Of a stretch of 64,000 nt of DNA, positions 1-25,059 are shown piece after piece. The DNA comes from Escherichia coli (GTDB lineage: Bacteria; Pseudomonadota; Gammaproteobacteria; Enterobacterales; Enterobacteriaceae). A program made the translations under genes and the position numbers. A model generated the notes under the pieces. That model was given only the letters and a program-made list of their open reading frames with translations, did not search any database and was not told where the DNA came from. The stretch lies in NCBI RefSeq assembly GCF_029227855.1, contig NZ_CP074356.1; one strand, given 5' to 3'. How positions within the stretch are numbered: position 1 is the first letter of the stretch; the number at the start of each line of letters is the position of its first letter.

Positions 1-338
1 CGCTGTCGAAAGAGACGCTCGCCACCATTATCGCCGGAAAACTGGCCCGTCTGGATAACGTGCTGCGCAGTCGCTTTGGTGCAGAAGTGGTCATTGAACC
101 GGAAGTGACGGACGAAATCATGAGCCGCGTCACCCGCGCGGAAAACGGCGCGAGGATGCTGGAATCGGTCATCGATGGCGACATGCTACCGCCGCTCTCG
201 CTGCTGCTGTTGCAGAAAATGGCGGCTAACACGGCGATTGCCCGGATTCGGTTGTCGGCGGTGGACGACGCATTTACGGCAGACGTGGAAGATGCTCAGA
301 ACGACGAGTCCGTCACAAAGGATGAAACGGTTTTATGA
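1..338 (+). CDS. tssH: ClpV/TssH AAA+ ATPase of T6SS, C-terminal fragment (5' end lies outside window)
   Basis: Frame open from window edge to TGA at 336-338; tail ...RFGAEVVIEPEVTDEIMSRVTRAENGARMLESVIDG... resembles Clp/Hsp100 C-terminal small domain; stop overlaps next start (ATGA); followed by tssA/tssM/hcp. Confidence 0.6.
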   Translation, partial: LSKETLATIIAGKLARLDNVLRSRFGAEVVIEPEVTDEIMSRVTRAENGARMLESVIDGDMLPPLSLLLLQKMAANTAIARIRLSAVDDAFTADVEDAQNDESVTKDETVL

Positions 339-1078
339 GCAGGTTGCGCGTTTTCCGGCAGACAGGATGGTTTATCGCGGGCCTGATGACGGGCTTACCC
401 GCCACTGCCGCGCCCGCAGAAACATCGTCAATGGCCGGTGTGGCGGTCGCCGTCGCCACCACGACCCCGCCGGATGCGACAGCCACGTCACAGGCCATGC
501 AGTCCTGTCGGCGGGAGTCCGCGGCGCTGGAGCGGCTTGACTGCTATGACCGCCTGCTGGCACCGCTGTCCCCGTCAGGGTTTGACGGGGCGCTGGTCAA
601 AGCCGGTTTTGTGGGCGAGGCCTGGACCCGCGCCACAGAGCAGGAAAAACGCCGCGAGGGCAACACCACAGAACTGCTGGTGACGCAGGTGCCGGGGGAG
701 CGCCCGACGGTGGTGATAACCACCCCGGCTATCGGCCATGTTCCGCCGCGCCCGGTGCTGATGTTCAGTTGCGTGGACAATATCACCCGGATGCAGGTGG
801 CGCTGATGCACCCTCTGGATGTCCATGATATCGCCGTCACTCTGAATGCCGACAGCCGGGCATTGCGTAGCCACTGGTTTGTGCGCGAGAACGGCACCCT
901 GCTGGAGTCCAGCCGGGGGCTGTCCGGGATTGATGAAATTAAGCAACTGTTCGGCGCAAAAACGCTGACAGTGGATACCGGCGCAGATAACGCCGCAGGA
1001 AAGCTGACCTTTAACATTGACGGGCTGGCAAGGGCGATTGCCCCCCTGCGCGTTGCCTGCCACTGGGCGGGAGAATAA
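335..1078 (+). CDS. T6SS-associated exported protein (VasI-like by position), 247 aa
   Basis: ORF with N-terminal hydrophobic signal-like segment (GWFIAGLMTGLPATAAPA) and Ala/Thr/Pro-rich linker; translationally coupled to clpV and tssA; assignment by synteny only. Confidence 0.5.
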   Translation: MSRLRVFRQTGWFIAGLMTGLPATAAPAETSSMAGVAVAVATTTPPDATATSQAMQSCRRESAALERLDCYDRLLAPLSPSGFDGALVKAGFVGEAWTRATEQEKRREGNTTELLVTQVPGERPTVVITTPAIGHVPPRPVLMFSCVDNITRMQVALMHPLDVHDIAVTLNADSRALRSHWFVRENGTLLESSRGLSGIDEIKQLFGAKTLTVDTGADNAAGKLTFNIDGLARAIAPLRVACHWAGE

Positions 1079-1082
1079 AAAT

Positions 1083-2495
1083 ATGGCAATGGACTTACGC
1101 GATCCGAATGTCTGGATAACGCACCTGCTGGAAAACCTGCCGGAAGAAAAACTGGCATCGGCGCTGAAAGATGACAACCCGGACTGGGAGTATATCGACG
1201 GCGAAATCGTCAAACTGGGATCTCTGGCCCACAGTCAACTGGATATCCCGGAACTCCAGCGCCGGGGGCTGGTCATTCTGGCTTCGGAGAGTAAGGACTT
1301 TCGTCTGCTGGCGCATCTGCTGAGAACCCTGCAACACGCCGGTGATCCTCATCTCGCATTGCGCCTGCTGGCGCTGTATGTGGAGCATTACTGGTCGGTG
1401 GCTGCGCCGCAGAATATGGCACATAAAAAACGCTTTGCCAGCCAGGTCATTAAACGCTTCGAAACAGGTATTGAAGGCTTTTCACAGAACGCCGCCACAG
1501 CGCAGCGCGACGCGCTGTCAGGGGAACTGGCGAAACTGGCGCAGTGCTGGCAGTCACATAACGCCCCGGAACTGGCACTGGCTACCGATGATCTTTTTGC
1601 CCTGTACCAGCGTGCGTTTAATCGTGCGGCACCGGCTCCTGCCCCCACTCCAGCGGCCTCCGATAGTTCACGACAGACCACCGCCACGTCTGAAAGCGGC
1701 GTGACGCAACCCAGTGCTCCGGCTCCCCAAATCGCCATCGACAGTCACGACGACAAAGCCTGGCGCGACACGCTGTTAAAAGTGGCGGCTATTTTATGTG
1801 AACGCCAGCCGGACTCGCCGCAGGGCTATCGCCTGCGCCGCCATGCCCTGTGGCAATCCATCACCAGTACACCCCAGGCGGAAAGCGATGGACGTACCCC
1901 ATTGGCTGCGGTCTCTGCCGATATGGTGGCGGATTACCAGTCCCGGCTTGCCAGCGCGGATATGGCGCTGTGGCAGCAGGTTGAGAAAAGCGTATTGCTG
2001 GCTCCTTACTGGCTGGACGGTCACTGTCTTTCTGCACAGACGGCACTGCGTCTGGGTTACAAACAGGTGGCAGACACCATCCGCGATGAGGTCATCCGCT
2101 TCCTTGAGCGTCTGCCCCAGCTTACCGGGCTGCTGTTTAATGACCGCACACCGTTTCTTAGTGAGCAGACGAAACAATGGCTGGCAGCTTCGCCCGACGG
2201 CAAAGTTGCACCGGTTGCGCAAATCGGTGAGGAATCGCAGGCAGCCAGAGCCTGTTTTGCTGGGCAGGGTCTGGAGGCGGCGCTGCGATATCTGGACATG
2301 CTACCCGAAGGCGATCCCCGCGATCAGTTTCACCGCCAGTACCTTGCCGCACAGTTGACGGAGGAGGCGGGGCTGATACAGCTTGCGCAGCAACAGTACC
2401 GGATGTTGTTGATGATAGGGAGTCAGATGATGGTGTCTGACTGGGAGCCATCATTACTTACGCAGCTTGAACAAAAATTCACGGCAGAACAATAA
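1083..2495 (+). CDS. tssA: TssA (ImpA-family) T6SS protein, 470 aa
   Basis: ATG at 1083 preceded by GGGAGA 7 nt upstream; ~470 aa with internal Pro/Ala-rich linker; immediately upstream of tssM as in VasJ-VasK arrangement. Confidence 0.6.
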   Translation: MAMDLRDPNVWITHLLENLPEEKLASALKDDNPDWEYIDGEIVKLGSLAHSQLDIPELQRRGLVILASESKDFRLLAHLLRTLQHAGDPHLALRLLALYVEHYWSVAAPQNMAHKKRFASQVIKRFETGIEGFSQNAATAQRDALSGELAKLAQCWQSHNAPELALATDDLFALYQRAFNRAAPAPAPTPAASDSSRQTTATSESGVTQPSAPAPQIAIDSHDDKAWRDTLLKVAAILCERQPDSPQGYRLRRHALWQSITSTPQAESDGRTPLAAVSADMVADYQSRLASADMALWQQVEKSVLLAPYWLDGHCLSAQTALRLGYKQVADTIRDEVIRFLERLPQLTGLLFNDRTPFLSEQTKQWLAASPDGKVAPVAQIGEESQAARACFAGQGLEAALRYLDMLPEGDPRDQFHRQYLAAQLTEEAGLIQLAQQQYRMLLMIGSQMMVSDWEPSLLTQLEQKFTAEQ

Positions 2496-2513
2496 AAGAG
2501 AACAGGAGTTTTT

Positions 2514-5500
2514 GTGTTCAGATTACCAACACCCCGACTACTCAGCGGACTCAAATCAGCCCTACGCCCGGCGATGCCCCGGTTTAAAGTCTCCGCTTTC
2601 TGGCTGCTGATACTGGCGTGGATTTTTCTGCTGGTATGGATCTGGTGGAAAGGCCCGACGTGGACGCTGTATGAAGAACAGTGGCTCAAACCACTGGCGA
2701 ACCGCTGGCTGGCAACGGCGGCATGGGGGATTATCGCCCTAGTGTGGCTTACCGTCCGGGTGATGAAGCGCCTGCAACAGCTTGAAAAAATGCAAAAGCA
2801 GCAGCGCGAGGAGGCCATTGATCCGCTCAGTGTGGAGCTGAACGCCCAGCAGCGTTACCTTGACCGCTGGCTGCTGCGCCTGCAACGCCATCTCGACAAC
2901 CGCCGTTTCCTGTGGCAGTTGCCGTGGTATATGGTCATCGGCCCGGCGGGCAGTGGCAAAACGACACTGCTGCGCGAGGGTTTTCCGTCCGACATTATTT
3001 ATGCCCCGGAGGGCGCACGCGGCGCAGAACAACGCCTGTACCTCACGCCCCATGTCGGTAAACAGGCGGTGATCTTTGATATCGACGGCACACTCTGCGC
3101 TCCCGCTGATGCGGATATCCTGCATCGCCGTCTGTGGGAACATGCCCTCGGCTGGCTGAAAGAAAAGCGCGCGCGCCAGTCGCTGAACGGGATTATTCTG
3201 ACACTCGATTTACCCGATCTGCTTACCGCAGACAAACGCCGCCGCGAACATCTGTTACAGACGCTGCGCAGCCGCTTGCAGGATATACGCCAGCATCTTC
3301 ACTGCCAGTTACCGGTTTACGTGGTACTCACCCGGCTTGATTTATTGCAGGGTTTTGCCGCCCTGTTCCAGTCACTGAACAGACAGGATCGCGATGCAAT
3401 TCTAGGGGTCACGTTCACCCGCCGCGCCCATGAAAATGATGACTGGCGAACAGAGTTGAATGCTTTCTGGCAGACATGGGTGGATCGAATGAACCTAGCG
3501 TTGCCGGATCTGATGGTCGCTCAGACTCACACCCGCGCGTCTTTATTTAGTTTTTCCCGCCAGATGCAGGGAAGCCGTGAACCACTGGTGTCACTGCTTG
3601 AGGGTCTGCTTGACGGCGAAAATATGAACGTGATGCTGCGTGGCGTCTATCTCACCTCTTCGCTTCAGCGCGGACAGATGGATGATATTTTCACCCAGTC
3701 TGCCGCCCGCCAATACCGGCTGGGCAATAACCCACTGGCGTCCTGGCCTCTGGTGGACACCGCACCCTATTTCACCCGTAGCATGTTCCCGCAGGCGTTA
3801 CTCGCAGAGCCTAATCTGGCAACGGAGAGCCGCGCCTGGCTGATGCGTTCCCGTCGCCGCCTGACGGTTTTCTCTGCCACTGGCGGCGTGGCGGCACTGC
3901 TGCTCATCACCGGCTGGCATCACTATTACAATGGTAACTATCAGTCCGGCATCACCGTGCTTAAGCAGGCCAAAGCCTTTATGGATGTGCCGCCTCCGCA
4001 GGGGGAAGATGACTATGGCAACCTGCAACTGCCGCTGCTGAACCCGGTACGCGATGCCACTCTGGCCTACGGTGACTGGGGCGACCGCAGCCGCCTTGCG
4101 GAGATGGGATTATATCAGGGGCGACGCATCGGGCCTTATGTGGAACGGACCTACCTGCAACTGCTGGAGCAACGCTATCTTCCGTCGCTGTTTAACGGGC
4201 TGGTCAAAGAGATGAACGCCGCGCCACCGGAGAGTGAGGAAAAACTCGCCGTGCTGCGCGTGATGCGAATGCTGGAGGATAAGAGCGGACGTAACAATGA
4301 GGTGGTGAAGCAGTATATGGCAAAACGCTGGAGCGAAAAGTTCCACGGCCAGCGCGATATCCAGGCGCAACAGATGTCCCATCTTGACTACGCGCTGGCT
4401 CACACAGACTGGCATGCAGAGCGTCAGGCGGGCGACGGTGACGCTATCAGCCGCTGGACGCCGTATGACAAGCCCGTTGTGTCAGCACAGAAAGAACTAA
4501 GCAAACTACCTGTCTACCAGCGAGTTTACCAGAGCCTGAAAACGCGGGCGCTGGGCGTTCTTCCTGCCGACCTCAATCTGCGTGACCAGGTAGGGCCAAC
4601 CTTTGACCAGGTGTTTACATCTGCCGATGACAATAAACTGGTTGTTCCACAGTTTCTTACCCGTTACGGCCTGCAAAGCTATTTTGTAAAACAGCGCGAT
4701 GAACTGGTTGAACTGACGGCGATGGATTCCTGGGTACTCAACCTCACCCGCAGCGTGAAATACAGTGACGCCGACCGGGCGGAAATCCAGCGCCAGTTGA
4801 CCGAGCAGTATATCAGCGACTACACCGCCACCTGGCGGGCCGGGATGGACAATCTGAATATCCGCAATTTTGAGTCCATCGGACAACTGACCGGGGCGCT
4901 GGAGCAGGTTATCAGCGGTGACCAGCCTTTGCAGCGGGCGCTGACCGTGCTGCGTGACAACACACAACCAGGCGCCTTTTCTGAAAAGCTATCTGCTAAA
5001 GAACGGGATGAGGCCCTGGCTGAACCAGACTACCAGTTACTCACCCGCCTTGGGCATGAGTTCGCCCCGGAAAACAGTACCCTGACAGTCCAGAAAGATA
5101 AAGAAAGCACGATGCAGGCCGTGTACCTGCAGCTCACCGAGTTACACCGCTACCTGCTGGCGATCCAGAACGCGCCTGTACCTGGGAAATCGGCACTGAA
5201 AGCCGTGCAGTTACGGCTTGATCAGAACAGCAGCGATCCCATATTCGCCACCCGCCAGATGGCAAAAACACTGCCTGCTCCGCTCAACCGCTGGGCAGGC
5301 AGGCTGGCTGACCAGGCCTGGCATGTGGTGATGGTGGAAGCCGTTCACTATATGGAAGTGGACTGGCGCGACAGCGTGGTGAAACCGTTTAACGAGCAAC
5401 TGGCAAATAACTATCCGTTTAATCCACATTCTGCACAGGATGCCTCACTGGATGCCTTCGAACGATTCTTTAAACCAGATGGCATACTGGATACCTTCTA

Positions 5501-6038
5501 CCAGCAGAACCTAAAGCTGTTTATCGACAATGACCTGAGTCTGGAGGATGGCGATAACAACGTCATTATTCGCGAAGATATTATTGCGCAACTGGAAACC
5601 GCGCAGAAAATCCGTGACATATTCTTCAGCAAACAGAACGGTCTGGGAACATCCTTTGCCGTGGAAACGGTATCGCTTTCCGGCAACAAACGCCGCAGCG
5701 TACTGAACCTTGACGGTCAGTTAGTCGATTACAGCCAGGGCCGTAACTATACCGCCCATCTGGTCTGGCCTAACAATATGCGCGAAGGCAACGAAAGCAA
5801 ACTGACGCTGGTTGGTGCCCGCGGCGGCGCACCGCGCAGTATCAGCTTCAGCGGGCCGTGGGCTCCGTTCCGCCTGTTCGGGGCCGGACAGCTGACCGGA
5901 GTACAGGATGGCAACTTTACCGTGCGCTTTAGTGTGGACGGTGGCGCAATGACCTACCGCGTGCATACCGACACGGAAGATAACCCGTTCAGCGGTGGGT
6001 TATTCAGCCAGTTTGGCCTGTCAGACACACTGTACTGA
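2514..6038 (+). CDS. tssM: TssM (IcmF/VasK) T6SS membrane complex protein, 1174 aa
   Basis: GTG start at 2514 with AGGAG 6 nt upstream; N-terminal hydrophobic helices; Walker A GPAGSGKTT encoded at 2940-2966; size typical of IcmF family. Confidence 0.85.
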   Translation: MFRLPTPRLLSGLKSALRPAMPRFKVSAFWLLILAWIFLLVWIWWKGPTWTLYEEQWLKPLANRWLATAAWGIIALVWLTVRVMKRLQQLEKMQKQQREEAIDPLSVELNAQQRYLDRWLLRLQRHLDNRRFLWQLPWYMVIGPAGSGKTTLLREGFPSDIIYAPEGARGAEQRLYLTPHVGKQAVIFDIDGTLCAPADADILHRRLWEHALGWLKEKRARQSLNGIILTLDLPDLLTADKRRREHLLQTLRSRLQDIRQHLHCQLPVYVVLTRLDLLQGFAALFQSLNRQDRDAILGVTFTRRAHENDDWRTELNAFWQTWVDRMNLALPDLMVAQTHTRASLFSFSRQMQGSREPLVSLLEGLLDGENMNVMLRGVYLTSSLQRGQMDDIFTQSAARQYRLGNNPLASWPLVDTAPYFTRSMFPQALLAEPNLATESRAWLMRSRRRLTVFSATGGVAALLLITGWHHYYNGNYQSGITVLKQAKAFMDVPPPQGEDDYGNLQLPLLNPVRDATLAYGDWGDRSRLAEMGLYQGRRIGPYVERTYLQLLEQRYLPSLFNGLVKEMNAAPPESEEKLAVLRVMRMLEDKSGRNNEVVKQYMAKRWSEKFHGQRDIQAQQMSHLDYALAHTDWHAERQAGDGDAISRWTPYDKPVVSAQKELSKLPVYQRVYQSLKTRALGVLPADLNLRDQVGPTFDQVFTSADDNKLVVPQFLTRYGLQSYFVKQRDELVELTAMDSWVLNLTRSVKYSDADRAEIQRQLTEQYISDYTATWRAGMDNLNIRNFESIGQLTGALEQVISGDQPLQRALTVLRDNTQPGAFSEKLSAKERDEALAEPDYQLLTRLGHEFAPENSTLTVQKDKESTMQAVYLQLTELHRYLLAIQNAPVPGKSALKAVQLRLDQNSSDPIFATRQMAKTLPAPLNRWAGRLADQAWHVVMVEAVHYMEVDWRDSVVKPFNEQLANNYPFNPHSAQDASLDAFERFFKPDGILDTFYQQNLKLFIDNDLSLEDGDNNVIIREDIIAQLETAQKIRDIFFSKQNGLGTSFAVETVSLSGNKRRSVLNLDGQLVDYSQGRNYTAHLVWPNNMREGNESKLTLVGARGGAPRSISFSGPWAPFRLFGAGQLTGVQDGNFTVRFSVDGGAMTYRVHTDTEDNPFSGGLFSQFGLSDTLY

Positions 6039-6048
6039 GGAGGCAGGG

Positions 6049-7401
6049 ATGAATAGTAACGGACTGACACAAACTATCGTTACCGGCAGTGACCCGCGCG
6101 GGCTGCCGGAATTCAGCGCCATCCGCGAGGAAATAAACAAAGCCAGCCATCCGTCACAGCCTGAGCTGAACTGGAAACTGGTGGAGTCGCTGGCGCTGGC
6201 GATTTTTAAAGCCAACGGTGTGGATTTACACACCGCCACCTACTATACGCTTGCCCGGACACGGACACAGGGACTGGCGGGATTCTGCGAAGGTGCGGAA
6301 CTGCTGGCGGCAATGGTAAGCCACGACTGGGATAAATTCTGGCCGCAGGGCGGTCCGGCGCGTACTGAAATGCTGGACTGGTTTAACTCCCGAACCGGCA
6401 ATATTCTGCGTCAGCAAATCCCCTTTGCGGAACCCGATCTGCCACTGATCTACCGCACAGAGCGGGCATTGCAGCTTATCTGCGACAAGCTTCAGCAGGT
6501 GGAGCTGAAGCGCGTTCCGCGCGTGGAGAATCTGCTCTATTTTATGCAGAACACGCGTAAGCGGCTTGAACCCCAGCCGAAGAGTAACGTTGAAAACGCC
6601 GTACAGACCACGGTTAGAACACTGATTTATGCCCCGGAAACAACGGCTTCCTCCACGCCAGAAGCGGTAGTGCCTCCCCTGCCCGACCTGCCTGAGATGA
6701 AAGTAGAAGTGCGCAGTCTGTCAGAGAATCCCCCACAGGCCAGTGTGATGAAGCAAGGCAGTACGGTAAGAGGGTTTATCACGGGGATCGCCTGTTCAGT
6801 GGCTGTCGCCTCAGCATTGTGGTGGTGGCAGGTCTATCCGGTGCAACAGCAACTGTTACAGGTTAACGACACCGCGCAGGGCGCAGCAACGGTGTGGATG
6901 GCCTCACCTGAACTAGAAAACTATGAGCGCAGGCTGCAACAGCTTCTTGGCGTCTCCCCGGTACAACCGCTGGAAACCGGGATGCAGATGATGCGTGTTG
7001 CCGACAGTCGCTGGCCGGAAAGCCTGCAGCAGCAGCAGGCCTCGACACATTGGAATGAAGCACTCAAAACCCGCGCACAGAGTAGCCCGCAGTTGCGTGG
7101 CTGGTTGCAGACCCGTCAGGACTTACATGCTTTTGCAGATCTCGTGATGCGGCGCGAGAAAGAGGGACTAACCCTTTCCTATATCAAAAATGTCATCTGG
7201 CAGGCGGAGCGGGGACTGGGGCAGGAAACACCCGTTGAGTCTCTGTTGACGCAGTACCAGGATACCCGTGCGCAGAAGCAGAATATAGATGCGCTGGAAA
7301 AACAAATTAATGAGCGACTCGAAGGCGTGTTAATCCGCTGGCTGCTGCTGAAGAATAACGTCATGCCAGAGGCGGCAACCGGGACCACGGCCGAAAAATA
7401 A
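6049..7401 (+). CDS. TssA-like / VasL-like membrane-anchored T6SS accessory protein, 450 aa
   Basis: ATG at 6049 after GAGGAGG (6038-6044); central hydrophobic segment ITGIACSVAVASALWWW; position after tssM matches VasL; family call by synteny, not verified. Confidence 0.5.
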   Translation: MNSNGLTQTIVTGSDPRGLPEFSAIREEINKASHPSQPELNWKLVESLALAIFKANGVDLHTATYYTLARTRTQGLAGFCEGAELLAAMVSHDWDKFWPQGGPARTEMLDWFNSRTGNILRQQIPFAEPDLPLIYRTERALQLICDKLQQVELKRVPRVENLLYFMQNTRKRLEPQPKSNVENAVQTTVRTLIYAPETTASSTPEAVVPPLPDLPEMKVEVRSLSENPPQASVMKQGSTVRGFITGIACSVAVASALWWWQVYPVQQQLLQVNDTAQGAATVWMASPELENYERRLQQLLGVSPVQPLETGMQMMRVADSRWPESLQQQQASTHWNEALKTRAQSSPQLRGWLQTRQDLHAFADLVMRREKEGLTLSYIKNVIWQAERGLGQETPVESLLTQYQDTRAQKQNIDALEKQINERLEGVLIRWLLLKNNVMPEAATGTTAEK

Positions 7402-7424
7402 TTATTTAATTAAAGGAGATTATC

Positions 7425-7907
7425 ATGGCAAATATGAGTTATTTATCTTTGAGTGGAGAGACACAAGGGCTGATTTCAGCAGGTTGCTCAACGCTTGATT
7501 CTGTCGGAAACAAAGCACAGCCAGAACATAAAGATCAGATCATGGTTTATGCGTTAATGCATTCCATCTCAAGAAGTCAAAATGTCAATCATCATGAATT
7601 AATTATCACCAAACCGGTTGATAAATCCTCACCATTGCTGGCAAAAGCACTTAGTGACAATGAAAAAATGGTAACATGTGAATTTATACTCTACCGAACC
7701 AGTAAAGCGGGTATTTACCAGCCTTATTATAAAATAAACCTGTCAAAAGCCCGAATATCAAGTATTGATTTTGTCACACCGCATGCTGTCCTGGAAAAAG
7801 AACTGGAGCCACAGGAGAGAATTGCCTTTATTTATGAAGATATTTCCTGGGAGCATACGTTAGCCGGTACGAATGCAATGAGTAAATGGCAGGATCGTGT
7901 ACAGTAA
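7425..7907 (+). CDS. hcp: Hcp (TssD) T6SS tube protein, 160 aa
   Basis: AGGAG RBS upstream; 160 aa; Hcp-like segments KSSPLLAKAL and ERIAFIYEDISWEH; no C-terminal extension; lower GC than upstream T6SS genes. Confidence 0.8.
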   Translation: MANMSYLSLSGETQGLISAGCSTLDSVGNKAQPEHKDQIMVYALMHSISRSQNVNHHELIITKPVDKSSPLLAKALSDNEKMVTCEFILYRTSKAGIYQPYYKINLSKARISSIDFVTPHAVLEKELEPQERIAFIYEDISWEHTLAGTNAMSKWQDRVQ

Positions 7908-7950
7908 TTTACTGTAATAACATAATAAATTACTATTGCGGAGAGATATA

Positions 7951-8865
7951 ATGGCTGGTTTAAGGAATAATAACAACACACAGAATGCACAGTGGGCTGA
8001 TTATGTGGGTGACATTCTTCGGGGGGCTCAACCGATAAACCAGCTAGTACCTCAGCACCCTTATCTTAACGACGTCCCACTCATTGATGAATTAAGGCGT
8101 CAGAACACTCATCATGTTATTCTCTTGACACTTGATGTTGCAAAAAAAATACTCAACTCAATAACATCATTTGATTACATTCATTTTATCACTACACATC
8201 CTTCAGGTATAAAAGATACACTCGCTTGGTTAGTTAACGCGGGTAAATTAATGACTGAGTTTGATGGAAATGGGAAAATTATATTTAACTTTAATACCTT
8301 AAAGTATACAAAAGCAAGTTACTTTGAAATACTTGGAGAGAAATATATAAAAATTACAACATCCAGCCCCTGGCTTTTAGAAAAGCTCGGTAAATATATT
8401 TTCTCTTCACGAGCGCCTCAAGTTCTGGAACTCGCTATTGGCTGGCGAGGAGCTTTATCTGAATCAATAAAAGGAGTTAAGTTCTGTATCTGGTTTTCAG
8501 TAGCCTGGAGAACCATAGAATTTATTATGAGTTCAGAGCGAGATCTGGTTAATTTTCTTGGTGATTTTTCAATGGATGTGGCCAAAGCAGTGATTGCAGG
8601 CGGTGTTGCAACTGCTATTGGAAGCCTGGCTTCTTTTGCCTGTCTTAGTTTTGGCCTTCCAGTAATTCTTGTAGGAGGAGCAATTTTACTTACAGGGATA
8701 GTGTGTACAGTTGTTTTAAATGAAATCGATGCTCAATACCATTTATCAGAAAAATTAAAAGATGCAATTAGAGATGGACTAAAACGGCAACAGGAACTTG
8801 ATAAATGGAAAAGGGAAAACATGACTCCATTTATGTATGTTCTTAACACTCCTCCCGTGATATGA
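7951..8865 (+). CDS. hypothetical protein, 304 aa, C-terminal Gly/Ala-rich hydrophobic helical hairpin; candidate T6SS cargo effector
   Basis: ATG 7951 with GGAGAG 5 nt upstream; ~220-aa polar N-terminal region, then two hydrophobic helices (AVIAGGVATAIGSLASFA and GLPVILVGGAILLTGIVCTVVL) and a charged tail; AT-rich; 43 nt downstream of hcp. Confidence 0.55.
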   Translation: MAGLRNNNNTQNAQWADYVGDILRGAQPINQLVPQHPYLNDVPLIDELRRQNTHHVILLTLDVAKKILNSITSFDYIHFITTHPSGIKDTLAWLVNAGKLMTEFDGNGKIIFNFNTLKYTKASYFEILGEKYIKITTSSPWLLEKLGKYIFSSRAPQVLELAIGWRGALSESIKGVKFCIWFSVAWRTIEFIMSSERDLVNFLGDFSMDVAKAVIAGGVATAIGSLASFACLSFGLPVILVGGAILLTGIVCTVVLNEIDAQYHLSEKLKDAIRDGLKRQQELDKWKRENMTPFMYVLNTPPVI

Positions 8866-8874
8866 GGATTAACT

Positions 8875-9129
8875 ATGCGTTTACATGTTAAATTGAAAGA
8901 GTTTTTTTCGATGTTTTTTATAGCCATATTATTTTTCCCTGCATTCAATGCTTCTTTATTTTTTACCGGAATTAAACCTCTATATTCAATAATAAAAGGC
9001 TCCACGGAAATATTTTATGATTGGAGAATGTTGATTCTATGCTTCGGTTTCATATCGTTTTCCTTGTTAAATATTCATGTAATTTTACTAACAATAATAA
9101 AATCATTCTTAATAAAAAAACAAAGGTAA
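8875..9129 (+). CDS. small membrane protein, 84 aa, two predicted TM helices; candidate immunity protein
   Basis: ATG 8875 with GAGGA 6 nt upstream, 9 nt after previous stop; very hydrophobic product; ends just after an A7 run at 9114-9120. Confidence 0.4.
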   Translation: MRLHVKLKEFFSMFFIAILFFPAFNASLFFTGIKPLYSIIKGSTEIFYDWRMLILCFGFISFSLLNIHVILLTIIKSFLIKKQR

Positions 9130-9341
9130 TCAATTTCGCCACAGACATAACAATACAGCTAACTCTTATATTTTTACTAATAGCTATCGTAATAGCACCT
9201 TTAATAGCTCCTTTTGTCACAGGATATGTCAATGCTAATTATCACCCCTGCGGTAATAACACGGGGATTTTCCCAGGAGCAATCTATATTAAAAATGGCA
9301 TAAAATGTAATAATGAACATATTTCTCGCAAGGAAGATTAA
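9021..9341 (+). CDS. hypothetical small membrane ORF (frame 0); possibly the 3' part of a frameshifted gene with 8875..9129
   Basis: Overlaps previous ORF in another frame; one hydrophobic helix LTLIFLLIAIVIAPLIAPFV; no convincing own RBS; frames would join with one extra A at 9114-9120. Confidence 0.2.
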   Translation: MENVDSMLRFHIVFLVKYSCNFTNNNKIILNKKTKVINFATDITIQLTLIFLLIAIVIAPLIAPFVTGYVNANYHPCGNNTGIFPGAIYIKNGIKCNNEHISRKED

Positions 9342-9454
9342 GCAGTTAAATAATTAAATATTCTAAAACAAACAGTTTTTAACGCCGGATTCCATGTCCT
9401 TTCTTGCACTGTCTTTGTCAGGAACAATTTCTTATGCAAAGAATTTTGTATTAT

Positions 9455-9477
9455 TGCCGCCAGAAATTCCTGGCGGC
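9455..9477. terminator. hairpin between convergent cargo ORFs and yafT
   Basis: GCCGCCAG-aaattc-CTGGCGGC inverted repeat flanked by AT-rich sequence. Confidence 0.4.
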
Positions 9478-9489
9478 AGATATAATTTA

Positions 9490-10275
9490 TTATTGATAGC
9501 GGTTAACCAAATCTTTTACCATCGCTTTATAGGTCTTTTGCTTAAGTTGTATGATTTGCTGCTCTGTCATATCAGTCGTACTGGCTTCATTCTTGCCGGG
9601 AAATGGTGGAAGCACTTTATATTCATAATTCACCGGCGACCAGGCAGCCCACTCACCTGTAGCTACATCCACCAGCGTGAATCGCACCAGATAGCGCAGT
9701 GAGATTGTGTTAGTCAGTTTTTCATTTTTATAATCGGACCATACTGTTGATTTCAGTGCAGTGTCATATTTTCCTGTCTGCAACGTATCCTGGTAAACAA
9801 TAATCGCTTTCTGATGGCCTTTTGCCGCCACAAAACGTAATGCCTGCATCCAGTTCATATTTTCAGCACTGGCAACATCCTCGTTCTCATTTTTATCTTT
9901 GTTTTTGTTACAAGTCAGAGGCTTTTGTCTGTCCGGGATACCAGAGAATGTGGAAACAGTATAATATTTTCGCATCTCCTCCTGCATAATGGTTTCCGGT
10001 GCGCGGTTGCCGGATTGAACAAGTATTACAGGTGAATTAAGGGGAACGCGGAACTCATCTCCATCAAGCGCAGCTTGAATATCCTCCTCGGATACGGCTA
10101 GTGTGGTTTCATTACCAAATAAGTCTTTGTCTGTTAGTTGCTGCGGAGCGTTTTTATTAAAATTACTTTGTGTGGTTTGAGCTTTTTTCTTCTTTTCATC
10201 AATAAGAGATTCAGAGACACATCCTGCAAGCAGCGACAATAATACATATATACAACAAACCTTTTTTGAATTCAA
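9490..10275 (-). CDS. yafT: YafT lipoprotein, 261 aa
   Basis: Signal peptide with lipobox LLAGC; Lys/Asn-rich; AT-rich; sits beside aspV as in K-12. Confidence 0.85.
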
Positions 10276-13656: not shown

Positions 13657-15015
13657 ATGAAGGCAAAAGCGATATTACTCGCCTCTGTCCTGCTCGTGGG
13701 TTGCCAGAGTACCGGCAACGTTCAACAGCACGCACAGAGCCTTTCTGCAGCTGGTCAAGGGGAAGCAGCAAAGTTTACAAGTCAGGCACGATGGATGGAC
13801 GATGGGACGTCTATCGCGCCAGATGGTGACTTGTGGGCTTTCATTGGCGACGAGCTAAAGATGGGAATTCCGGAAAATGACCGGATTCGCGAACAGAAAC
13901 AGAAATATTTACGCAATAAGAGCTATCTCCACGATGTAACTTTACGGGCAGAGCCGTATATGTACTGGATAGCCGGGCAAGTTAAAAAACGTAACATGCC
14001 TATGGAACTGGTACTACTACCCATAGTGGAGAGCGCTTTTGATCCTCACGCAACGTCTGGCGCCAATGCAGCAGGCATCTGGCAGATCATTCCGAGCACG
14101 GGGCGCAATTATGGTTTGAAACAGACCCGCAATTATGACGCGCGTCGCGATGTTGTTGCTTCAACAACTGCCGCGCTGAACATGATGCAGCGTCTGAACA
14201 AGATGTTTGACGGCGACTGGCTTCTGACCGTAGCGGCTTATAACAGCGGCGAAGGTCGAGTCATGAAGGCAATTAAAACGAACAAAGCGCGTGGGAAATC
14301 CACGGACTTCTGGTCGTTACCGTTGCCGCAGGAAACGAAGCAGTACGTGCCTAAAATGCTGGCATTGAGTGATATTCTCAAAAACAGCAAGCGTTATGGC
14401 GTACGTCTGCCAACGACCGATGAAAGCCGTGCTCTGGCGCGTGTGCACCTGAGCAGCCCAGTTGAAATGGCGAAGGTTGCAGATATGGCGGGGATTTCCG
14501 TCAGCAAGCTTAAGACATTCAACGCTGGCGTGAAAGGCTCCACGCTGGGCGCAAGTGGTCCGCAGTACGTGATGGTGCCAAAGAAGCATGCAGATCAACT
14601 GCGTGAATCTCTGGCTTCGGGCGAAATTGCTGCTGTACAGTCGACGCTGGTTGCCGACAATACGCCGCTTAACAGCCGTGTTTACACCGTACGCTCTGGC
14701 GACACGCTTTCAAGTATCGCTTCACGTCTCGGCGTTAGCACCAAAGATTTGCAGCAGTGGAACAAACTGCGCGGATCTAAGCTGAAGCCAGGCCAAAGCT
14801 TGACGATTGGCGCAGGTAGTAGCGCACAGCGGTTGGCAAACAACAGCGATAGCATTACATATCGTGTGCGCAAAGGCGATTCGCTTTCAAGCATTGCTAA
14901 ACGCCACGGCGTGAACATCAAAGATGTGATGCGCTGGAACAGCGATACTGCGAATCTGCAACCAGGCGATAAGCTGACGTTGTTTGTGAAAAACAACAAC
15001 ATGCCAGATTCCTGA
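13657..15015 (+). CDS. mltD: membrane-bound lytic murein transglycosylase D, 452 aa
   Basis: Lipoprotein signal LLVGC, transglycosylase core, C-terminal LysM repeats. Confidence 0.9.
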   Translation: MKAKAILLASVLLVGCQSTGNVQQHAQSLSAAGQGEAAKFTSQARWMDDGTSIAPDGDLWAFIGDELKMGIPENDRIREQKQKYLRNKSYLHDVTLRAEPYMYWIAGQVKKRNMPMELVLLPIVESAFDPHATSGANAAGIWQIIPSTGRNYGLKQTRNYDARRDVVASTTAALNMMQRLNKMFDGDWLLTVAAYNSGEGRVMKAIKTNKARGKSTDFWSLPLPQETKQYVPKMLALSDILKNSKRYGVRLPTTDESRALARVHLSSPVEMAKVADMAGISVSKLKTFNAGVKGSTLGASGPQYVMVPKKHADQLRESLASGEIAAVQSTLVADNTPLNSRVYTVRSGDTLSSIASRLGVSTKDLQQWNKLRGSKLKPGQSLTIGAGSSAQRLANNSDSITYRVRKGDSLSSIAKRHGVNIKDVMRWNSDTANLQPGDKLTLFVKNNNMPDS

Positions 15016-15034
15016 CAAATCAGATAATAAATAT

Positions 15035-15058
15035 CCTCCGGCATAGCCGGAGGTTTTT
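15035..15058 (+). terminator. rho-independent terminator of mltD
   Basis: CCTCCGGC-ata-GCCGGAGG stem followed by TTTTT. Confidence 0.75.
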
Positions 15059-15061
15059 CAA

Positions 15062-15742
15062 ATGCGCCTATAAGGCTCTCTTACCAGCCGCGCCCTAACA
15101 GGCGCACACGATCTGACATTTGCATCCAACTTCGTTACTTACGGCCCGTAAACGGGCTGCCCGGATAGGGAATCGATAACTGCTCTCCCATTTTATCCTC
15201 TTCAAGCTGGTGCTTTATGTAATCCTGTATCTTCGCCGTGTTCTTACCCACTGTATCGACGTAGTACCCTCTGCACCAGAACTCCCTGTTCCTGTATTTG
15301 AATTTCAAATCACCAAACTGCTCGTAAAGCATCAGACTGCTTTTCCCTTTCAGATATCCCATAAACCCGGATACGCTCATTTTGGGCGGGATCTCCACAA
15401 GCATATGGATATGATCTGCACAGCATTCAGCTTCCAGAATCCGTACGCTTTTCCACTCACACAGCTTTCTCAAAATACTGCCTATTGCTCTACGCTTCTC
15501 TCTGTAGAACACCTGTCTTCGGTATTTTGGCGCAAAAACTATGTGATATTTACAGTTCCATCGGGTGTGCGCTAAGCTCTTTTCGTTCCCCATTGGGACC
15601 CCCTTTTGATTTCTTGTTTGACACTTGCAGTTGCCAGACCGCAAAGTGTTTTAACAAATCAAAAGGGGTTTTAATAACTGGCTCAAAGCTGAAAGCTTTC
15701 CGGAACCCCCAGCCTAGCTGGGGGTTTTCTGTGCACAATGAA
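15062..15742 (-). mobile_element. IS200-family insertion sequence (IS200/IS605 family), boundaries approximate (+/-30 bp)
   Basis: Single 152-aa Y1 transposase ORF; perfect palindrome AACCCCCAGC-cta-GCTGGGGGTT at 15704-15727; 5' UTR inverted repeat 15596-15672 pairing with the SD; ~0.7 kb extra DNA between convergent mltD and yafE. Confidence 0.65.
15135..15593 (-). CDS. tnpA: IS200-family transposase TnpA (HUH Y1 transposase), 152 aa
   Basis: MGNEKSLAHTRWNCKYHIVFAPKYRR...HIHMLVEIPPK... with HUH motif; start at internal ATG 15593 with GGGGG SD. Confidence 0.85.
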   Translation of the reverse strand: MGNEKSLAHTRWNCKYHIVFAPKYRRQVFYREKRRAIGSILRKLCEWKSVRILEAECCADHIHMLVEIPPKMSVSGFMGYLKGKSSLMLYEQFGDLKFKYRNREFWCRGYYVDTVGKNTAKIQDYIKHQLEEDKMGEQLSIPYPGSPFTGRK

Positions 15743-15743
15743 A

Positions 15744-15770
15744 GGCACCGATTCCCCCGGTGCCTTTTTT
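15744..15770. terminator. hairpin downstream of yafE stop (likely native yafE/mltD terminator)
   Basis: GGCACCG-attcccc-CGGTGCC with A-run on one side and T6 on the other. Confidence 0.5.
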
Positions 15771-15772
15771 AT

Positions 15773-16543
15773 TTATGCTGCTTTATGTGCTTCTACAATG
15801 ATGATATCACTGGTGAAAGAGCCATCATTCTGCAAGGCAAAATACGTTTTCACCTCTGTCGATGCGCTCTGTTGGTAAATGCGAATAGCGTCTACTAACG
15901 CTTCTGGCGTACGCATTCTCGCGACCCATGAAGAAAATTCCAGCGGTAACTTATCTGTAATTAAATTATCAACTATCAGATTGGCTTCATTGATTAACGT
16001 CAACCACTCACCGCTGGCGTAGTTTCGTACGTGAGAGGTATCGCGTAATGCTTCTACCGTCTGTAACCAGACGTCGCGCACTGGGTGCCCCGGAGACATT
16101 ACGTCCATCACAATCAGCCTACCGCCAGGTTTCAATATCCTATTCACTTCTCGCAGTGCTGCACCAACATCATGCCAGTGATGGGCAGAATAACGGCTGA
16201 TAACAATATCAAATGCGTTATCGGCAAATGGCAGACTTTCGACATAACCCTGGCGGGTGGTGATATTTTTCAGTTGCCGGGCTTCGGCAGCTTGTGCCAC
16301 GACATCCAGCATGTGGGCAGATAAGTCATACGCCACCACCGCGCTCACGTTCTGCGCAGCGACAAAGCTGGCATGCCCTGCTCCGCAGCCCATATCAAGT
16401 ACACTTGCATCAGGATAATCAGCCAGACGCACCGCCAGGCGCTGTAAATCCCGTCCGGATGCATGTACGGTACTAGTCAGATATTCGCTAGCTTGAGAGC
16501 TAAACTGCTTTTCTACGTGGTCATGGTGGGATTGTGATGTCAT
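15773..16543 (-). CDS. yafE: SAM-dependent methyltransferase YafE; full ORF 256 aa
   Basis: Contains SAM-binding motif VLDMGCGAGH; longest ORF annotated, shorter internal starts possible. Confidence 0.8.
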   Translation of the reverse strand: MTSQSHHDHVEKQFSSQASEYLTSTVHASGRDLQRLAVRLADYPDASVLDMGCGAGHASFVAAQNVSAVVAYDLSAHMLDVVAQAAEARQLKNITTRQGYVESLPFADNAFDIVISRYSAHHWHDVGAALREVNRILKPGGRLIVMDVMSPGHPVRDVWLQTVEALRDTSHVRNYASGEWLTLINEANLIVDNLITDKLPLEFSSWVARMRTPEALVDAIRIYQQSASTEVKTYFALQNDGSFTSDIIIVEAHKAA

Positions 16544-19538: not shown

Positions 19539-19615
19539 TGGCGGAACGGACGGGACTCGAACCCGCGACCCCCTGCGTGACAGGCAGGTATTCTAACCGA
19601 CTGAACTACCGCTCC
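19539..19615 (-). tRNA. aspU: tRNA-Asp(GUC), distal tRNA of rrnH
   Basis: 77-nt reverse complement of canonical tRNA-Asp including CCA. Confidence 0.95.
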
Positions 19616-19667
19616 ACCGAATTCTTTTACAACCACCGGTTTTATGACCGGCTTACTGCTAAATTTG

Positions 19668-19787
19668 ATGCCTGGCAGTTCCCTACTCTCGCATGGGGAG
19701 ACCCCACACTACCATCGGCGCTACGGCGTTTCACTTCTGAGTTCGGCATGGGGTCAGGTGGGACCACCGCGCTAAGGCCGCCAGGCA
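19668..19787 (-). rRNA. rrfH: 5S ribosomal RNA
   Basis: 120-nt reverse complement of E. coli 5S rRNA; one difference from the copy I recall. Confidence 0.95.
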
Positions 19788-19878
19788 AATTCTGTTTATC
19801 AGACCGCTTCTGCGTTCTGATTTAATCTGTATCAGGCTGAAAATCTTCTCTCATCCGCCAAAACATCTTCGGCGTTGT

Positions 19879-22783
<2,905 letters not shown>

Positions 22784-22966
22784 TCACAACCCGAAGATGT
22801 TTCTTTCGATTCATCATCGTGTTGCGAAAATTTGAGAGACTCACGAACAACTTTCGTTGTTCAGTGTTTCAATTTTCAGCTTGATCCAGATTTTTAAAGA
22901 GCAAAACTTCGCAGTGAACCTTTGCAGGTACACTCTGAAGTATTTTTTATTTAATCACTACAGAGA

Positions 22967-23042
22967 TGGTGGAGCTATGCGGGATCGAACCGCAGACCTC
23001 CTGCGTGCAAAGCAGGCGCTCTCCCAGCTGAGCTATAGCCCC
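22967..23042 (-). tRNA. alaV: tRNA-Ala(UGC), spacer tRNA
   Basis: Reverse complement of GGGGCTATAGCTCAGCTGGGAGAGCGCCTGCTTTGCACGCAGGAGGTCTGCGGTTCGATCCCGCATAGCTCCACCA. Confidence 0.95.
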
Positions 23043-23084
23043 ATAACATGTAGTTAAAACCTCTTCAAATTTGCGGTGCAAATT

Positions 23085-23161
<77 letters not shown>

Positions 23162-23229
23162 GTAGAGGTTTTACTGCTCATTTTCATCAGACAATCTGTG
23201 TGAGCACTGCAAAGAACGCTTCTTTAAGG

Positions 23230-24771
<1,542 letters not shown>

Positions 24772-24903
24772 AAAAGTTTGATGCTCAAAGAATTAAACTT
24801 CGTAATGAATTACGTGTTCACTCTTGAGACTTGGTATTCATTTTTCGTCTTGCGACGTTAAGAATCCGTATCTTCGAGCGCCCACACAGATTGTCTGATA
24901 AAT

Positions 24904-24916
24904 TGTTAAAGAGCAG
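24904..24916 (-). promoter_or_regulatory. boxA antitermination element in rrn leader
   Basis: Reverse complement reads TGCTCTTTAACAA between P2 and 16S. Confidence 0.7.
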
Positions 24917-24949
24917 TTGCGACGCGGCTTTCAGCTCACTGTCGCGAGG

Positions 24950-24990
24950 TGGCGTATATTACGCTTTCCTCTTTCAGAGTCAACCCTGAA
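24950..24990 (-). promoter_or_regulatory. rrnH P2 promoter
   Basis: Minus strand TTGACT (24978-24983) and TAATAT (24956-24961); matches the rrn P2 sequence TTGACTCTGAAAGAGGAAAGCGTAATATAC. Confidence 0.7.
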
Positions 24991-25059
24991 TTTCAGGATT
25001 TTTCTCTTCAACCGAACCGGCTGTTTGTGTGAAGTGATTCACATCCGCCGTGTCGATGG

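What the first reader, a model, noticed from the sequence alone, without database searches (positions are those of the whole stretch)
15062..15742. IS200-family element inserted between the convergent genes mltD and yafE
About 0.7 kb separates the mltD terminator hairpin (15035-15058) from the yafE stop (15773). It holds one ORF encoding a 152-aa IS200-type Y1 (HUH) transposase, a perfect terminal palindrome (15704-15727) and a 5' UTR inverted repeat (15596-15672) positioned to pair with the GGGGG Shine-Dalgarno. Both are hallmarks of IS200, which lacks terminal inverted repeats and is translationally repressed by such a stem-loop. From memory of K-12 these two genes are separated by only a short spacer, so this looks like a strain-specific insertion that could be a useful lineage marker.
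Basis: partly seen in the sequence, partly recalled or inferred. Interest (0 to 1): 0.45.

Follow-up and report, generated by a model that had tools for sequence, protein, structure and literature searches.

The report
IS200C insertion in mltD–yafE terminator
This is an ordinary, intact copy of the known insertion sequence IS200C, sitting just after the shared terminator of mltD and yafE, a site that IS200 elements have hit independently at least four times in E. coli.

Summary
RefSeq names its transposase IS200C.

**Extent.** The element is 15026-15736, 711 bp, with tnpA on the minus strand. Deleting exactly that stretch gives a 200-bp junction found at 100% identity in many E. coli genomes, so there is no target duplication.

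**Hairpins.** The native two-way terminator is 15740-15768.

**Other features confirmed:**
- a 152-aa Y1/HUH transposase (Pfam E 3.8e-38; H61-I-H63, Y125)
- the left-end palindrome
- the stem-loop that hides the ribosome-binding site (Rfam STnc490, 144.6 bits)

**Distribution.** IS200C-like DNA occurs in 3096 of 5426 complete E. coli genomes. Only 24 carry it at this site, from at least four separate insertions. Two hit the identical bond in one lineage with IS200 subtypes 4.2% apart. Presence alone is therefore an unreliable lineage marker.

**Target.** 80% of 118 related insertion sites lie directly after a terminator-like hairpin and T-run, against 1.9% of random positions.

Verdict: already known, low interest.

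The parts
15026..15736 (-). Complete IS200C element, 711 bp. In tnpA orientation it reads 5'-GTGCACAGAAAA...GGAGGATATTTATT-3'. Left end at 15736, right end at 15026.
   Evidence: Deleting this stretch gives an empty site found at 100%/100% in many genomes. Ten independent copies share sequence exactly to these ends. A 100% identical 711-bp copy lies at another locus in strain MRSN346647. The end positions are ambiguous by 3 nt at this site (ATT on both sides) and by 2 nt (TT) across sites.
15135..15593 (-). tnpA, a 152-aa Y1 (HUH) transposase. HUH = H61-I62-H63, catalytic Tyr = Y125, Q129. The end coordinate includes the stop codon.
   Evidence: Pfam PF01797, E 3.8e-38. Homologous to solved Y1 transposases 2EC2 (4e-23), IS608 TnpA 2A6M/2VJV (4e-19) and ISDra2 2XM3 (2e-16), with DHIH and Y aligned. 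RefSeq protein WP_000526135.1 is named IS200C family transposase.
15704..15726 (.). Left-end subterminal perfect palindrome AACCCCCAGC-TAG-GCTGGGGGTT (IS nt 11-33). In the literature this is the IS200 two-way Rho-independent terminator that blocks incoming transcription.
   Evidence: First helix of the Rfam STnc490 match. Function taken from PMC4513863 and PMC5435999 (about 85% termination), not tested here.
15599..15668 (-). tnpA 5'UTR stem-loop (IS nt 69-138), whose 3' arm contains the Shine-Dalgarno AAAGGGGG. It represses translation.
   Evidence: Inverted repeat I1. MFE fold, z = -4.7. Rfam structure. Coordinates agree with the nts 69-138 given in PMC4513863.
15603..15726 (-). Match to Rfam RF01405 (STnc490 Hfq-binding RNA), full length 1-124.
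   Evidence: 144.6 bits against a gathering score of 56, E 4.8e-31. The match is on the tnpA-sense strand.
15583..15673 (+). Inferred position of art200, the ~90-nt antisense sRNA that blocks tnpA translation. [quoted passage not shown]
   Evidence: Mapped by coordinates from PMC4513863 (5' ends at IS nt 153/154, length 90 nt), using IS nt 1 = window 15736 and ATG = nt 144. Inference by homology; expression was not tested.
15035..15058 (.). Right-end subterminal hairpin CCTCCGGC-ATA-GCCGGAGG plus TTTTT on the + strand.
   Evidence: Absent from the K-12 and C4 empty sites and present in all other IS200C copies. Scored as terminator-like on both strands. 14 of the 19 core nucleotides are identical to the left-end hairpin, and both are preceded by an A-run.
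15740..15768 (.). Native two-way Rho-independent terminator shared by mltD and yafE (GAAAGGCACCG...CGGTGCCTTTT). Its minus-strand tail TTTCATT (15737-15743) is the insertion target.
   Evidence: Present in the K-12 empty site directly after the mltD stop. Inverted repeat I7. Terminator scan.
13657..15015 (+). mltD (murein transglycosylase D), left neighbour. Its stop codon lies 10 nt before the IS right end.
   Evidence: RefSeq annotation.
15773..16543 (-). yafE-type class I SAM-dependent methyltransferase, right neighbour. It is transcribed in the same direction as tnpA.
   Evidence: RefSeq annotation.

Best explanation
Window 15026-15736 is an intact copy of the known insertion sequence IS200C (IS200/IS605 family, IS200 group), inserted without target duplication.

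**Position.** Read in the tnpA direction (minus strand), the left end sits immediately 3' of the T-rich tail (TTTCATT) of the two-way mltD/yafE terminator.

**How it is kept quiet.** Literature on Salmonella IS200 says tnpA is silenced in three ways (not tested here): the left-end hairpin terminator, a 5'UTR stem-loop that buries the Shine-Dalgarno sequence, and the antisense sRNA art200. All three elements are conserved in this copy.

**How it moves.** By homology to IS608 and ISDra2, the 152-aa Y1/HUH transposase would excise one strand as a circle and paste it into single-stranded DNA. This is inferred, not shown.

**Why here.** The target was a terminator because IS200-group elements insert after a GC hairpin followed by a T-run ending in TT. 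I infer that the A-run just 5' of the left-end hairpin acts as a 'guide' that pairs with the T-run, as GL pairs with TTAC in IS608.

**Effect on neighbours.** mltD is now separated from its native terminator. Its transcripts probably stop at the IS right-end hairpin plus TTTTT (inferred).

**History.** The insertion is recent and confined to a sublineage, and the site is a recurrent hot spot.
For: **Identity**
- Pfam Y1_Tnp, E 3.8e-38.
- HUH and Tyr aligned to solved IS200/IS605 transposases.
- RefSeq names the identical protein IS200C.
- Rfam STnc490, 144.6 bits.
- SD-sequestering fold, z = -4.7.
- No terminal inverted repeats: 11 of 40 positions match.

**Precise insertion**
- The empty site is recreated at 100% identity.
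- K-12 and C4 lack the 710-711 bp.

**Mobility**
- 10,727 places in 3096 of 5426 genomes, up to 35 per genome.
- 24 places in the closest genome, JNEC-KY178.

**Terminator targeting**
- 10 of 10 E. coli sites have a host hairpin and T-run abutting the left end.
- 94 of 118 sites across many taxa do so, against 95 of 5000 random positions.
- The flank is T at position -2 in 116 of 118 sites and at -1 in 105 of 118.

**Hot spot**
- Three junction types at this locus.
- Same bond but IS 4.2% diverged, with flanks about 0.1% diverged.
- Three-way SNP pattern of 15/2/0 places the window outside the pair formed by 20AH011 and empty strain 746.

**Orientation**
- The window + strand has GC skew of -0.044, so the tnpA-sense strand is the lagging-strand template. 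This matches the family bias described in PMC5027513.
Against: - No transposition, transcription or termination was measured.
- The regulatory roles are transferred from Salmonella IS200 papers.
- The guide-pairing idea is an analogy to IS608 and is untested.
- The element ends are ambiguous by 2-3 nt because of terminal T/ATT repeats.
- Two other insertions at this locus (L004, L005) differ by one extra T at the junction, which I did not resolve.
- An ISfinder reference sequence could not be consulted, so the name IS200C rests on RefSeq/PGAP labelling.
- The terminator detector was a simple home-made rule.
Confidence: 0.95

Rival explanations
1. One ancestral insertion at this site in the lineage, later overwritten by IS-to-IS gene conversion. 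On this view the window copy (IS200C subtype) and the copy in the 21-genome group (subtype with TnpA WP_001550737.1) are the same event.
For: The junctions are identical on both sides. Flanks differ by only about 1 per kb. The terminal 44 and 64 bp of the two copies are identical, which could seed recombination. The host genomes carry 12-24 potential donor copies.
Against: All 30 differences span nearly the whole element, 15070-15672. Empty-site strain 746 differs from occupied strain 20AH011 at only 2 positions in 18 kb, while the window differs from both at 15. A single origin would therefore also need loss in the many empty relatives seen. The site is independently hit in two other lineages.
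Confidence: 0.15
2. The 0.7 kb is ancestral intergenic DNA that K-12 and most strains have deleted.
For: None beyond its absence from K-12.
Against: 5393 of 5426 genomes have the uninterrupted junction. The same 711-bp unit occurs at thousands of unrelated loci and on plasmids. Its excision is exact to the base.
Confidence: 0.01
3. The copy is an inert relic: structurally complete but no longer able to move, as is often said of IS200.
For: The literature calls IS200 mostly dormant, with several layers of repression (PMC4513863). All the repressive elements are intact here.
Against: The ORF is intact with HUH and Tyr present. Both ends are intact. A 100% identical copy lies elsewhere. The closest genome has 24 copies, against 10-16 in most close relatives listed. 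Recent independent hits at this very site argue for activity in this lineage.
Confidence: 0.15
4. The hairpin at 15035-15058 is the native mltD terminator and the element starts after it.
For: It looks like a good intrinsic terminator on the + strand, with 8 bp (7 GC) followed by TTTTT, and it lies 20 nt after the mltD stop.
Against: It is absent from the K-12, C4 and same-lineage empty sites. It is present at the right end of every other IS200C copy, and in Y. pestis IS1541 tandem junctions.
Confidence: 0.02

Closest known systems
IS200 of Salmonella enterica / IS200C of E. coli (IS200/IS605 family, IS200 group)
   Same: Size of about 707-711 bp. A single tnpA encoding a 152-aa Y1 transposase. 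A left-end terminator palindrome, an SD-sequestering 5'UTR stem-loop at nt 69-138, and the art200/STnc490 region. No terminal inverted repeats and no target duplication (PMC4513863). RefSeq labels the identical protein IS200C.
   Different: Nothing of substance. By comparing empty and filled sites I get 711 bp, ending in TTTATT, against the 707 bp quoted for Salmonella IS200. Copy number in this lineage (up to 24-35) is far above the E. coli average of 2.9 quoted in PMC4513863.
IS1541 of Yersinia pestis / pseudotuberculosis
   Same: Identical 23-nt left-end hairpin and the same right-end hairpin. The same habit of sitting right after a terminator-like hairpin and T-run.
   Different: The left-end tip is GTGCCCAG rather than GTGCACAG. 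Copy number is much higher, and tandem head-to-tail dimers are seen (L082, L084).
IS608 (Helicobacter pylori) and ISDra2 (Deinococcus)
   Same: Homologous TnpA with HUH, Tyr and Gln (E 4e-19 and 2e-16). Subterminal hairpins at both ends. Insertion 3' of a short flank sequence next to the left end. No duplication. Orientation consistent with the lagging-strand template (PMC5027513, PMC5934647).
   Different: IS608 and ISDra2 carry tnpB and use a fixed target (TTAC, TTGAT). IS200C has no tnpB. Its target is a degenerate T-run ending in TT that usually follows a GC hairpin. Guide pairing is shown for IS608 and only inferred here.

Membership tests
IS200/IS605 family, IS200 group (IS200C) | Encodes a Y1 (single-tyrosine) HUH transposase of Pfam family PF01797 | tested here: met
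   E 3.8e-38, 130.7 bits against a cutoff of 23, covering profile positions 2-121 of 121.
IS200/IS605 family, IS200 group (IS200C) | Catalytic HUH motif and C-terminal Tyr (with Gln four residues later) conserved | tested here: met
   H61-I62-H63, Y125 and Q129. DHIH and Y are aligned with 2EC2 and 2F4F in the printed alignments, and IS608 and ISDra2 TnpA are also hit.
IS200/IS605 family, IS200 group (IS200C) | tnpA is the only gene; no tnpB | tested here: met
   The element is 711 bp. The only ORF with a family match is tnpA; the other ORFs overlapping it are antisense or out of frame.
IS200/IS605 family, IS200 group (IS200C) | No terminal inverted repeats | tested here: met
   The first 40 nt and the reverse complement of the last 40 nt are identical at 11 of 40 positions, which is chance level.
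IS200/IS605 family, IS200 group (IS200C) | Inserts without target-site duplication, so excision would restore the site exactly | tested here: met
   The window with 15026-15736 removed matches natural empty sites at 100% over 200 bp.
IS200/IS605 family, IS200 group (IS200C) | Subterminal hairpins at both the left and right ends | tested here: met
   Left end 15704-15726, right end 15035-15053. The cores share 14 of 19 nt, and each is preceded by an A-run.
IS200/IS605 family, IS200 group (IS200C) | Left end abuts a specific short target sequence kept in the flank | tested here: inconclusive
   The flank is a T-rich run ending in TT (position -2 T in 116/118, position -1 T in 105/118; position -3 variable) rather than a fixed tetra- or pentanucleotide. 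Which nucleotides are recognised is unknown.
IS200/IS605 family, IS200 group (IS200C) | Single-strand 'peel and paste' transposition on the lagging-strand template | not testable with these tools
   Only the orientation is consistent: the tnpA-sense strand lies on the G-rich strand, which is the lagging-strand template.
IS200/IS605 family, IS200 group (IS200C) | Nucleotide identity to the ISfinder reference for IS200C | not testable with these tools
   ISfinder is not available. The name rests on RefSeq/PGAP annotation of identical DNA and on hundreds of 99-100% identical copies carrying the same label.
Rfam RF01405 STnc490 (IS200 left-end RNA; art200 / 5'tnpA region) | Sequence and structure score above Rfam's gathering threshold | tested here: met
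   144.6 bits against 56, full model 1-124. Expression and Hfq binding are not testable here.

The most novel reading that the evidence does not exclude
IS200-group transposases may choose intrinsic terminators as integration sites by structure.
- A terminator (A-run, GC hairpin, T-rich tail) resembles the element's own right end (GAAAAA, CCTCCGGC-TAT-GCCGGAGG, ATATTTATT).
- Its T-tail can pair with the A-run 'guide' just 5' of the left-end hairpin.

This would explain three things:
- why 80% of 118 insertion sites from Enterobacterales, Vibrio and diverse gut MAGs lie a few nucleotides after a terminator-like hairpin;
- why elements form head-to-tail dimers in Y. pestis;
- why the mltD/yafE terminator was hit at least four times.

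A 2025-26 preprint reports terminator enrichment upstream of IS200/IS605 elements (10.1101/2025.07.22.666184). It reads that enrichment as a niche that limits transposase expression, not as a targeting mechanism.
Probability: 0.3. Interest if true: 0.4.

Novelty: already known. Interest (0 to 1): 0.13.

Why it matters
For this window it matters little. It is a correctly recognised copy of a named IS, and the annotation needs only small corrections to the ends and to which hairpin is the host terminator.

**Practical points**
- Presence or absence of IS200 at mltD-yafE is not a reliable marker, because the site has been hit repeatedly. Any typing use must read the junction and the IS subtype.
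- mltD is cut off from its native terminator and probably borrows the IS right-end hairpin.
- Each extra IS200 copy adds another source of two small RNAs, art200 and 5'tnpA. In Salmonella the latter regulates host genes (PMC5435999).

**Wider point**
The side observation that IS200-group elements land just after terminators, in many phyla, helps explain why this IS is tolerated: it rarely breaks genes and is shielded from read-through. It also offers a testable targeting rule.

Tried and rejected
- **Insertion defined against K-12 alone.** This gave 15031/2-15740/1 (710 bp), which clashed with the conserved ends of other copies. The clash was resolved when the lineage's own empty allele (…CAGAT|AATGAAAGG…) was found at 100% identity. 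K-12 carries a different allele of the spacer.
- **The hairpin at 15035-15058 as the mltD terminator.** Rejected.
- **Weak Rfam hits** to Ysr202 (29.8 bits against 315) and sroD (19.4 against 50) over the mltD stop and right-end hairpin. These are far below threshold and match only a generic terminator stem, so I rejected them.
- **Other copies in the 64-kb window.** A search found none.
- **Primary papers.** I tried to read Odaert 1998 on IS1541 insertion sites and Beuzón 1999. Neither is held, so I cannot say whether terminator-adjacent insertion was already described there.
- **The extra T at the MS 196-1 and E04 junctions.** I built hypothetical empty sites but did not search them. The E04 right flank is disrupted by an IS3-family element, and the answer would not change the verdict.
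- **Copy enumeration.** I could not list all IS200 copies in the source genome, because the tools return one row per record.

Full report
**What is in the sequence**

mltD occupies 13657-15015 on the + strand. A yafE-type methyltransferase occupies 15773-16543 on the minus strand. Between them lies one meaningful ORF, 15135-15593 on the minus strand, encoding 152 aa.

This ORF matches Pfam Y1_Tnp (PF01797) over the whole profile, with E 3.8e-38. It is homologous to the solved IS200/IS605 transposases:
- Sulfolobus 2EC2, E 4e-23
- IS608 TnpA 2A6M/2VJV, E 4e-19
- ISDra2 2XM3, E 2e-16

The HUH motif (H61-I62-H63) and the catalytic tyrosine (Y125, followed by Q129) are aligned.

It lies at 15704-15726, with 10-nt arms and a 3-nt loop, and shuffled sequence gave 0 matches.

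The 5'UTR inverted repeat is real as well (15600-15615 / 15653-15668). Folded as RNA, it buries AAAGGGGG, which lies 5 nt upstream of the ATG. The MFE is -62.1 kcal/mol, z = -4.7, and no shuffle folds as well.

The whole left-end region matches Rfam RF01405 (STnc490) at 144.6 bits, against a gathering score of 56.

**True extent**

Against K-12 the locus carries about 710 extra bases. However, other IS200C copies share sequence from window 15026 onward.

I lined up ten independent copies in the tnpA direction. The conserved block runs from GTGCACAG to GGAGGATATTTATT.

I then deleted exactly 15026-15736 (711 bp) and searched with the resulting 200-bp junction. It is found at 100% identity and full coverage in at least 25 listed genomes. 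5393 of 5426 genomes have an uninterrupted junction.

The element is therefore 15026-15736, inserted without target duplication into this lineage's own allele of the spacer. K-12 carries a slightly different allele, which explains the earlier 1-5 nt discrepancy. A 3-nt ambiguity remains because ATT occurs on both sides.

**The misassigned hairpin**

The hairpin at 15035-15058 is missing from all empty sites and present in every other IS200C copy. It is the right-end subterminal hairpin of the element.

The native two-way terminator of mltD and yafE is 15740-15768. In K-12 it follows the mltD stop directly.

On the + strand the IS hairpin is followed by TTTTT and scores as terminator-like. It probably now ends mltD transcripts. 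This is inferred.

**Identity and known biology**

RefSeq annotates the identical DNA in strain JNEC-KY178 as 'IS200/IS605-like element IS200C family transposase'.

The published map of Salmonella IS200 fits this copy when IS nt 1 is set to window 15736 (PMC4513863):
- terminator hairpin at nts 12-34
- tnpA transcription start near nt 40
- SD-sequestering repeat at nts 69-138
- art200 5' ends at nts 153/154

The ATG then falls at nt 144. This places art200 at about 15583-15673 on the + strand, by inference.

The literature gives the function of these parts. The left-end hairpin stops about 85% of incoming transcripts. The stem-loop and art200 each block translation. The processed 5'UTR acts as an sRNA in Salmonella (PMC4513863, PMC5435999). 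None of this was measured here.

The element has no terminal inverted repeats (11 of 40 positions match).

**Distribution**

IS200C-like sequence occurs in 3096 of 5426 complete E. coli genomes. Of these, 2063 have a near-full copy, and one genome has 35 places. The closest genome to the window has 24 places.

The window itself holds only this one copy.

At mltD-yafE, only 24 genomes carry an IS200.

**Not one event**

- Strains MS 196-1 and E04 carry the element in K-12-like flanks, with different junction sequences.
- Twenty-one genomes, for example 20AH011, have exactly the window's junction. Their IS differs from the window's at 30 of 711 positions (4.2%), and its transposase has a different accession. 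The surrounding 25 kb differs at only about 1 per kb.
- Many genomes with an empty site are just as close to the window, at 99.9% over 12 kb.
- In a three-way comparison over 18 kb of flank, the window has 15 private differences, 20AH011 has 2, and the empty strain 746 has 0. The window is therefore the outlier, and an empty strain sits next to an occupied one.

The simplest reading is two independent insertions of two IS200 subtypes at the same bond in one lineage, plus two more in other lineages. A single insertion followed by IS-to-IS conversion is not excluded, but it would also require loss in many relatives.

**Why this site**

In all ten E. coli copies examined, the left end abuts a host hairpin followed by a T-run, mostly between convergent genes.

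I scanned the one-genome-per-species collection with the 23-nt left-end hairpin. Among 118 unique left flanks:
- 94 (80%) have a GC hairpin with a T-rich tail ending within 16 nt of the element, against 95 of 5000 (1.9%) random positions in the same loci;
- the two flank bases next to the element are T in 116 and 105 of the 118 sites.

In Y. pestis some copies sit directly after the right end of another copy. The right end itself consists of an A-run, a GC hairpin and a T-rich tail.

In IS608 the target TTAC is read by base pairing with a four-base guide just 5' of the left-end hairpin (PMC5934647). In IS200C the equivalent position holds AGAAAA, and GAAAAA at the right end. I infer that this A-run pairs with the T-tail of terminators.

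A recent preprint reports that terminator-like sequences are enriched upstream of IS elements, most strongly for IS200/IS605 (10.1101/2025.07.22.666184). The pattern is therefore at least partly known.

The tnpA-sense strand lies on the G-rich strand, which is the lagging-strand template (GC skew of the + strand -0.044). This matches the family's reported bias (PMC5027513).

**Verdict**

The element is a named, well-studied IS. The useful additions are the corrected ends, the correct assignment of the two hairpins, and the warning that this insertion site is a hot spot. Novelty: already known. Interest: low.

Noticed in passing
L016-L135 (genome-contig scan): The exact 23-nt IS200 left-end hairpin occurs in Enterobacterales and Vibrio. 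It also occurs in MAGs labelled Oxalobacter, Mailhella/Desulfovibrio, Bacillota, Peptococcaceae, Saccharibacteria and Elusimicrobiaceae, often at contig ends and with lineage-specific left-end tips. Either the IS200 group has spread very widely with an invariant hairpin, or some MAG bins are contaminated.
   Followed up: partly
L082 2661-3393, L084 12605-13337, L081, L128 (Yersinia pestis NCTC5923): Head-to-tail tandem IS1541 copies about 710 bp apart. The second copy's left end directly follows the first copy's right end (…GGAGGATATTTA(T)|TTGTGCCC), as if the right end served as a target.
   Followed up: partly
window 15603-15726 (-): The Rfam STnc490 model matches the tnpA-sense strand (left-end hairpin plus 5'UTR stem-loop). 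The papers define STnc490/art200 as the antisense RNA. The model's strand may correspond to the 5'tnpA sRNA rather than to art200.
   Followed up: no
L006 1404-2600 (strain WP2-W18-ESBL-10); L005 2103-2600 (strain E04); L004 2044-2601 (strain MS 196-1): Secondary damage at the same locus in other strains. In WP2-W18-ESBL-10 the IS200 at mltD-yafE is itself interrupted by an IS66-family element (ISEc8). In E04 an IS3-family element disrupts yafE. In MS 196-1 yafE is annotated as partial.
   Followed up: no
window 15773-16543 (-) versus L001 664-1287: The yafE-type methyltransferase is a 256-aa ORF here and in many strains. In K-12 it is annotated as only 624 bp (207 aa), so K-12 either uses a later start or is truncated at the N-terminus.
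   Followed up: no
E. coli complete genomes: IS200C copy number varies greatly, from a median of 1 place to as many as 35-37 places per genome. The high counts are in strains closely related to the window's lineage. The 2015 literature figure was about 2.9 per E. coli genome. This suggests lineage-specific bursts of an IS usually called dormant.
   Followed up: partly
window 1-9700 and 19600-25000: By alignment to the annotated strain 20AH011, the window also holds part of a type VI secretion cluster (tssH, vasI, tssA, tssM, VasL, Hcp) and an rRNA operon. Differences from 20AH011 are clustered after about 26 kb, reaching up to 49 per kb, which looks like recombination patches.
   Followed up: no
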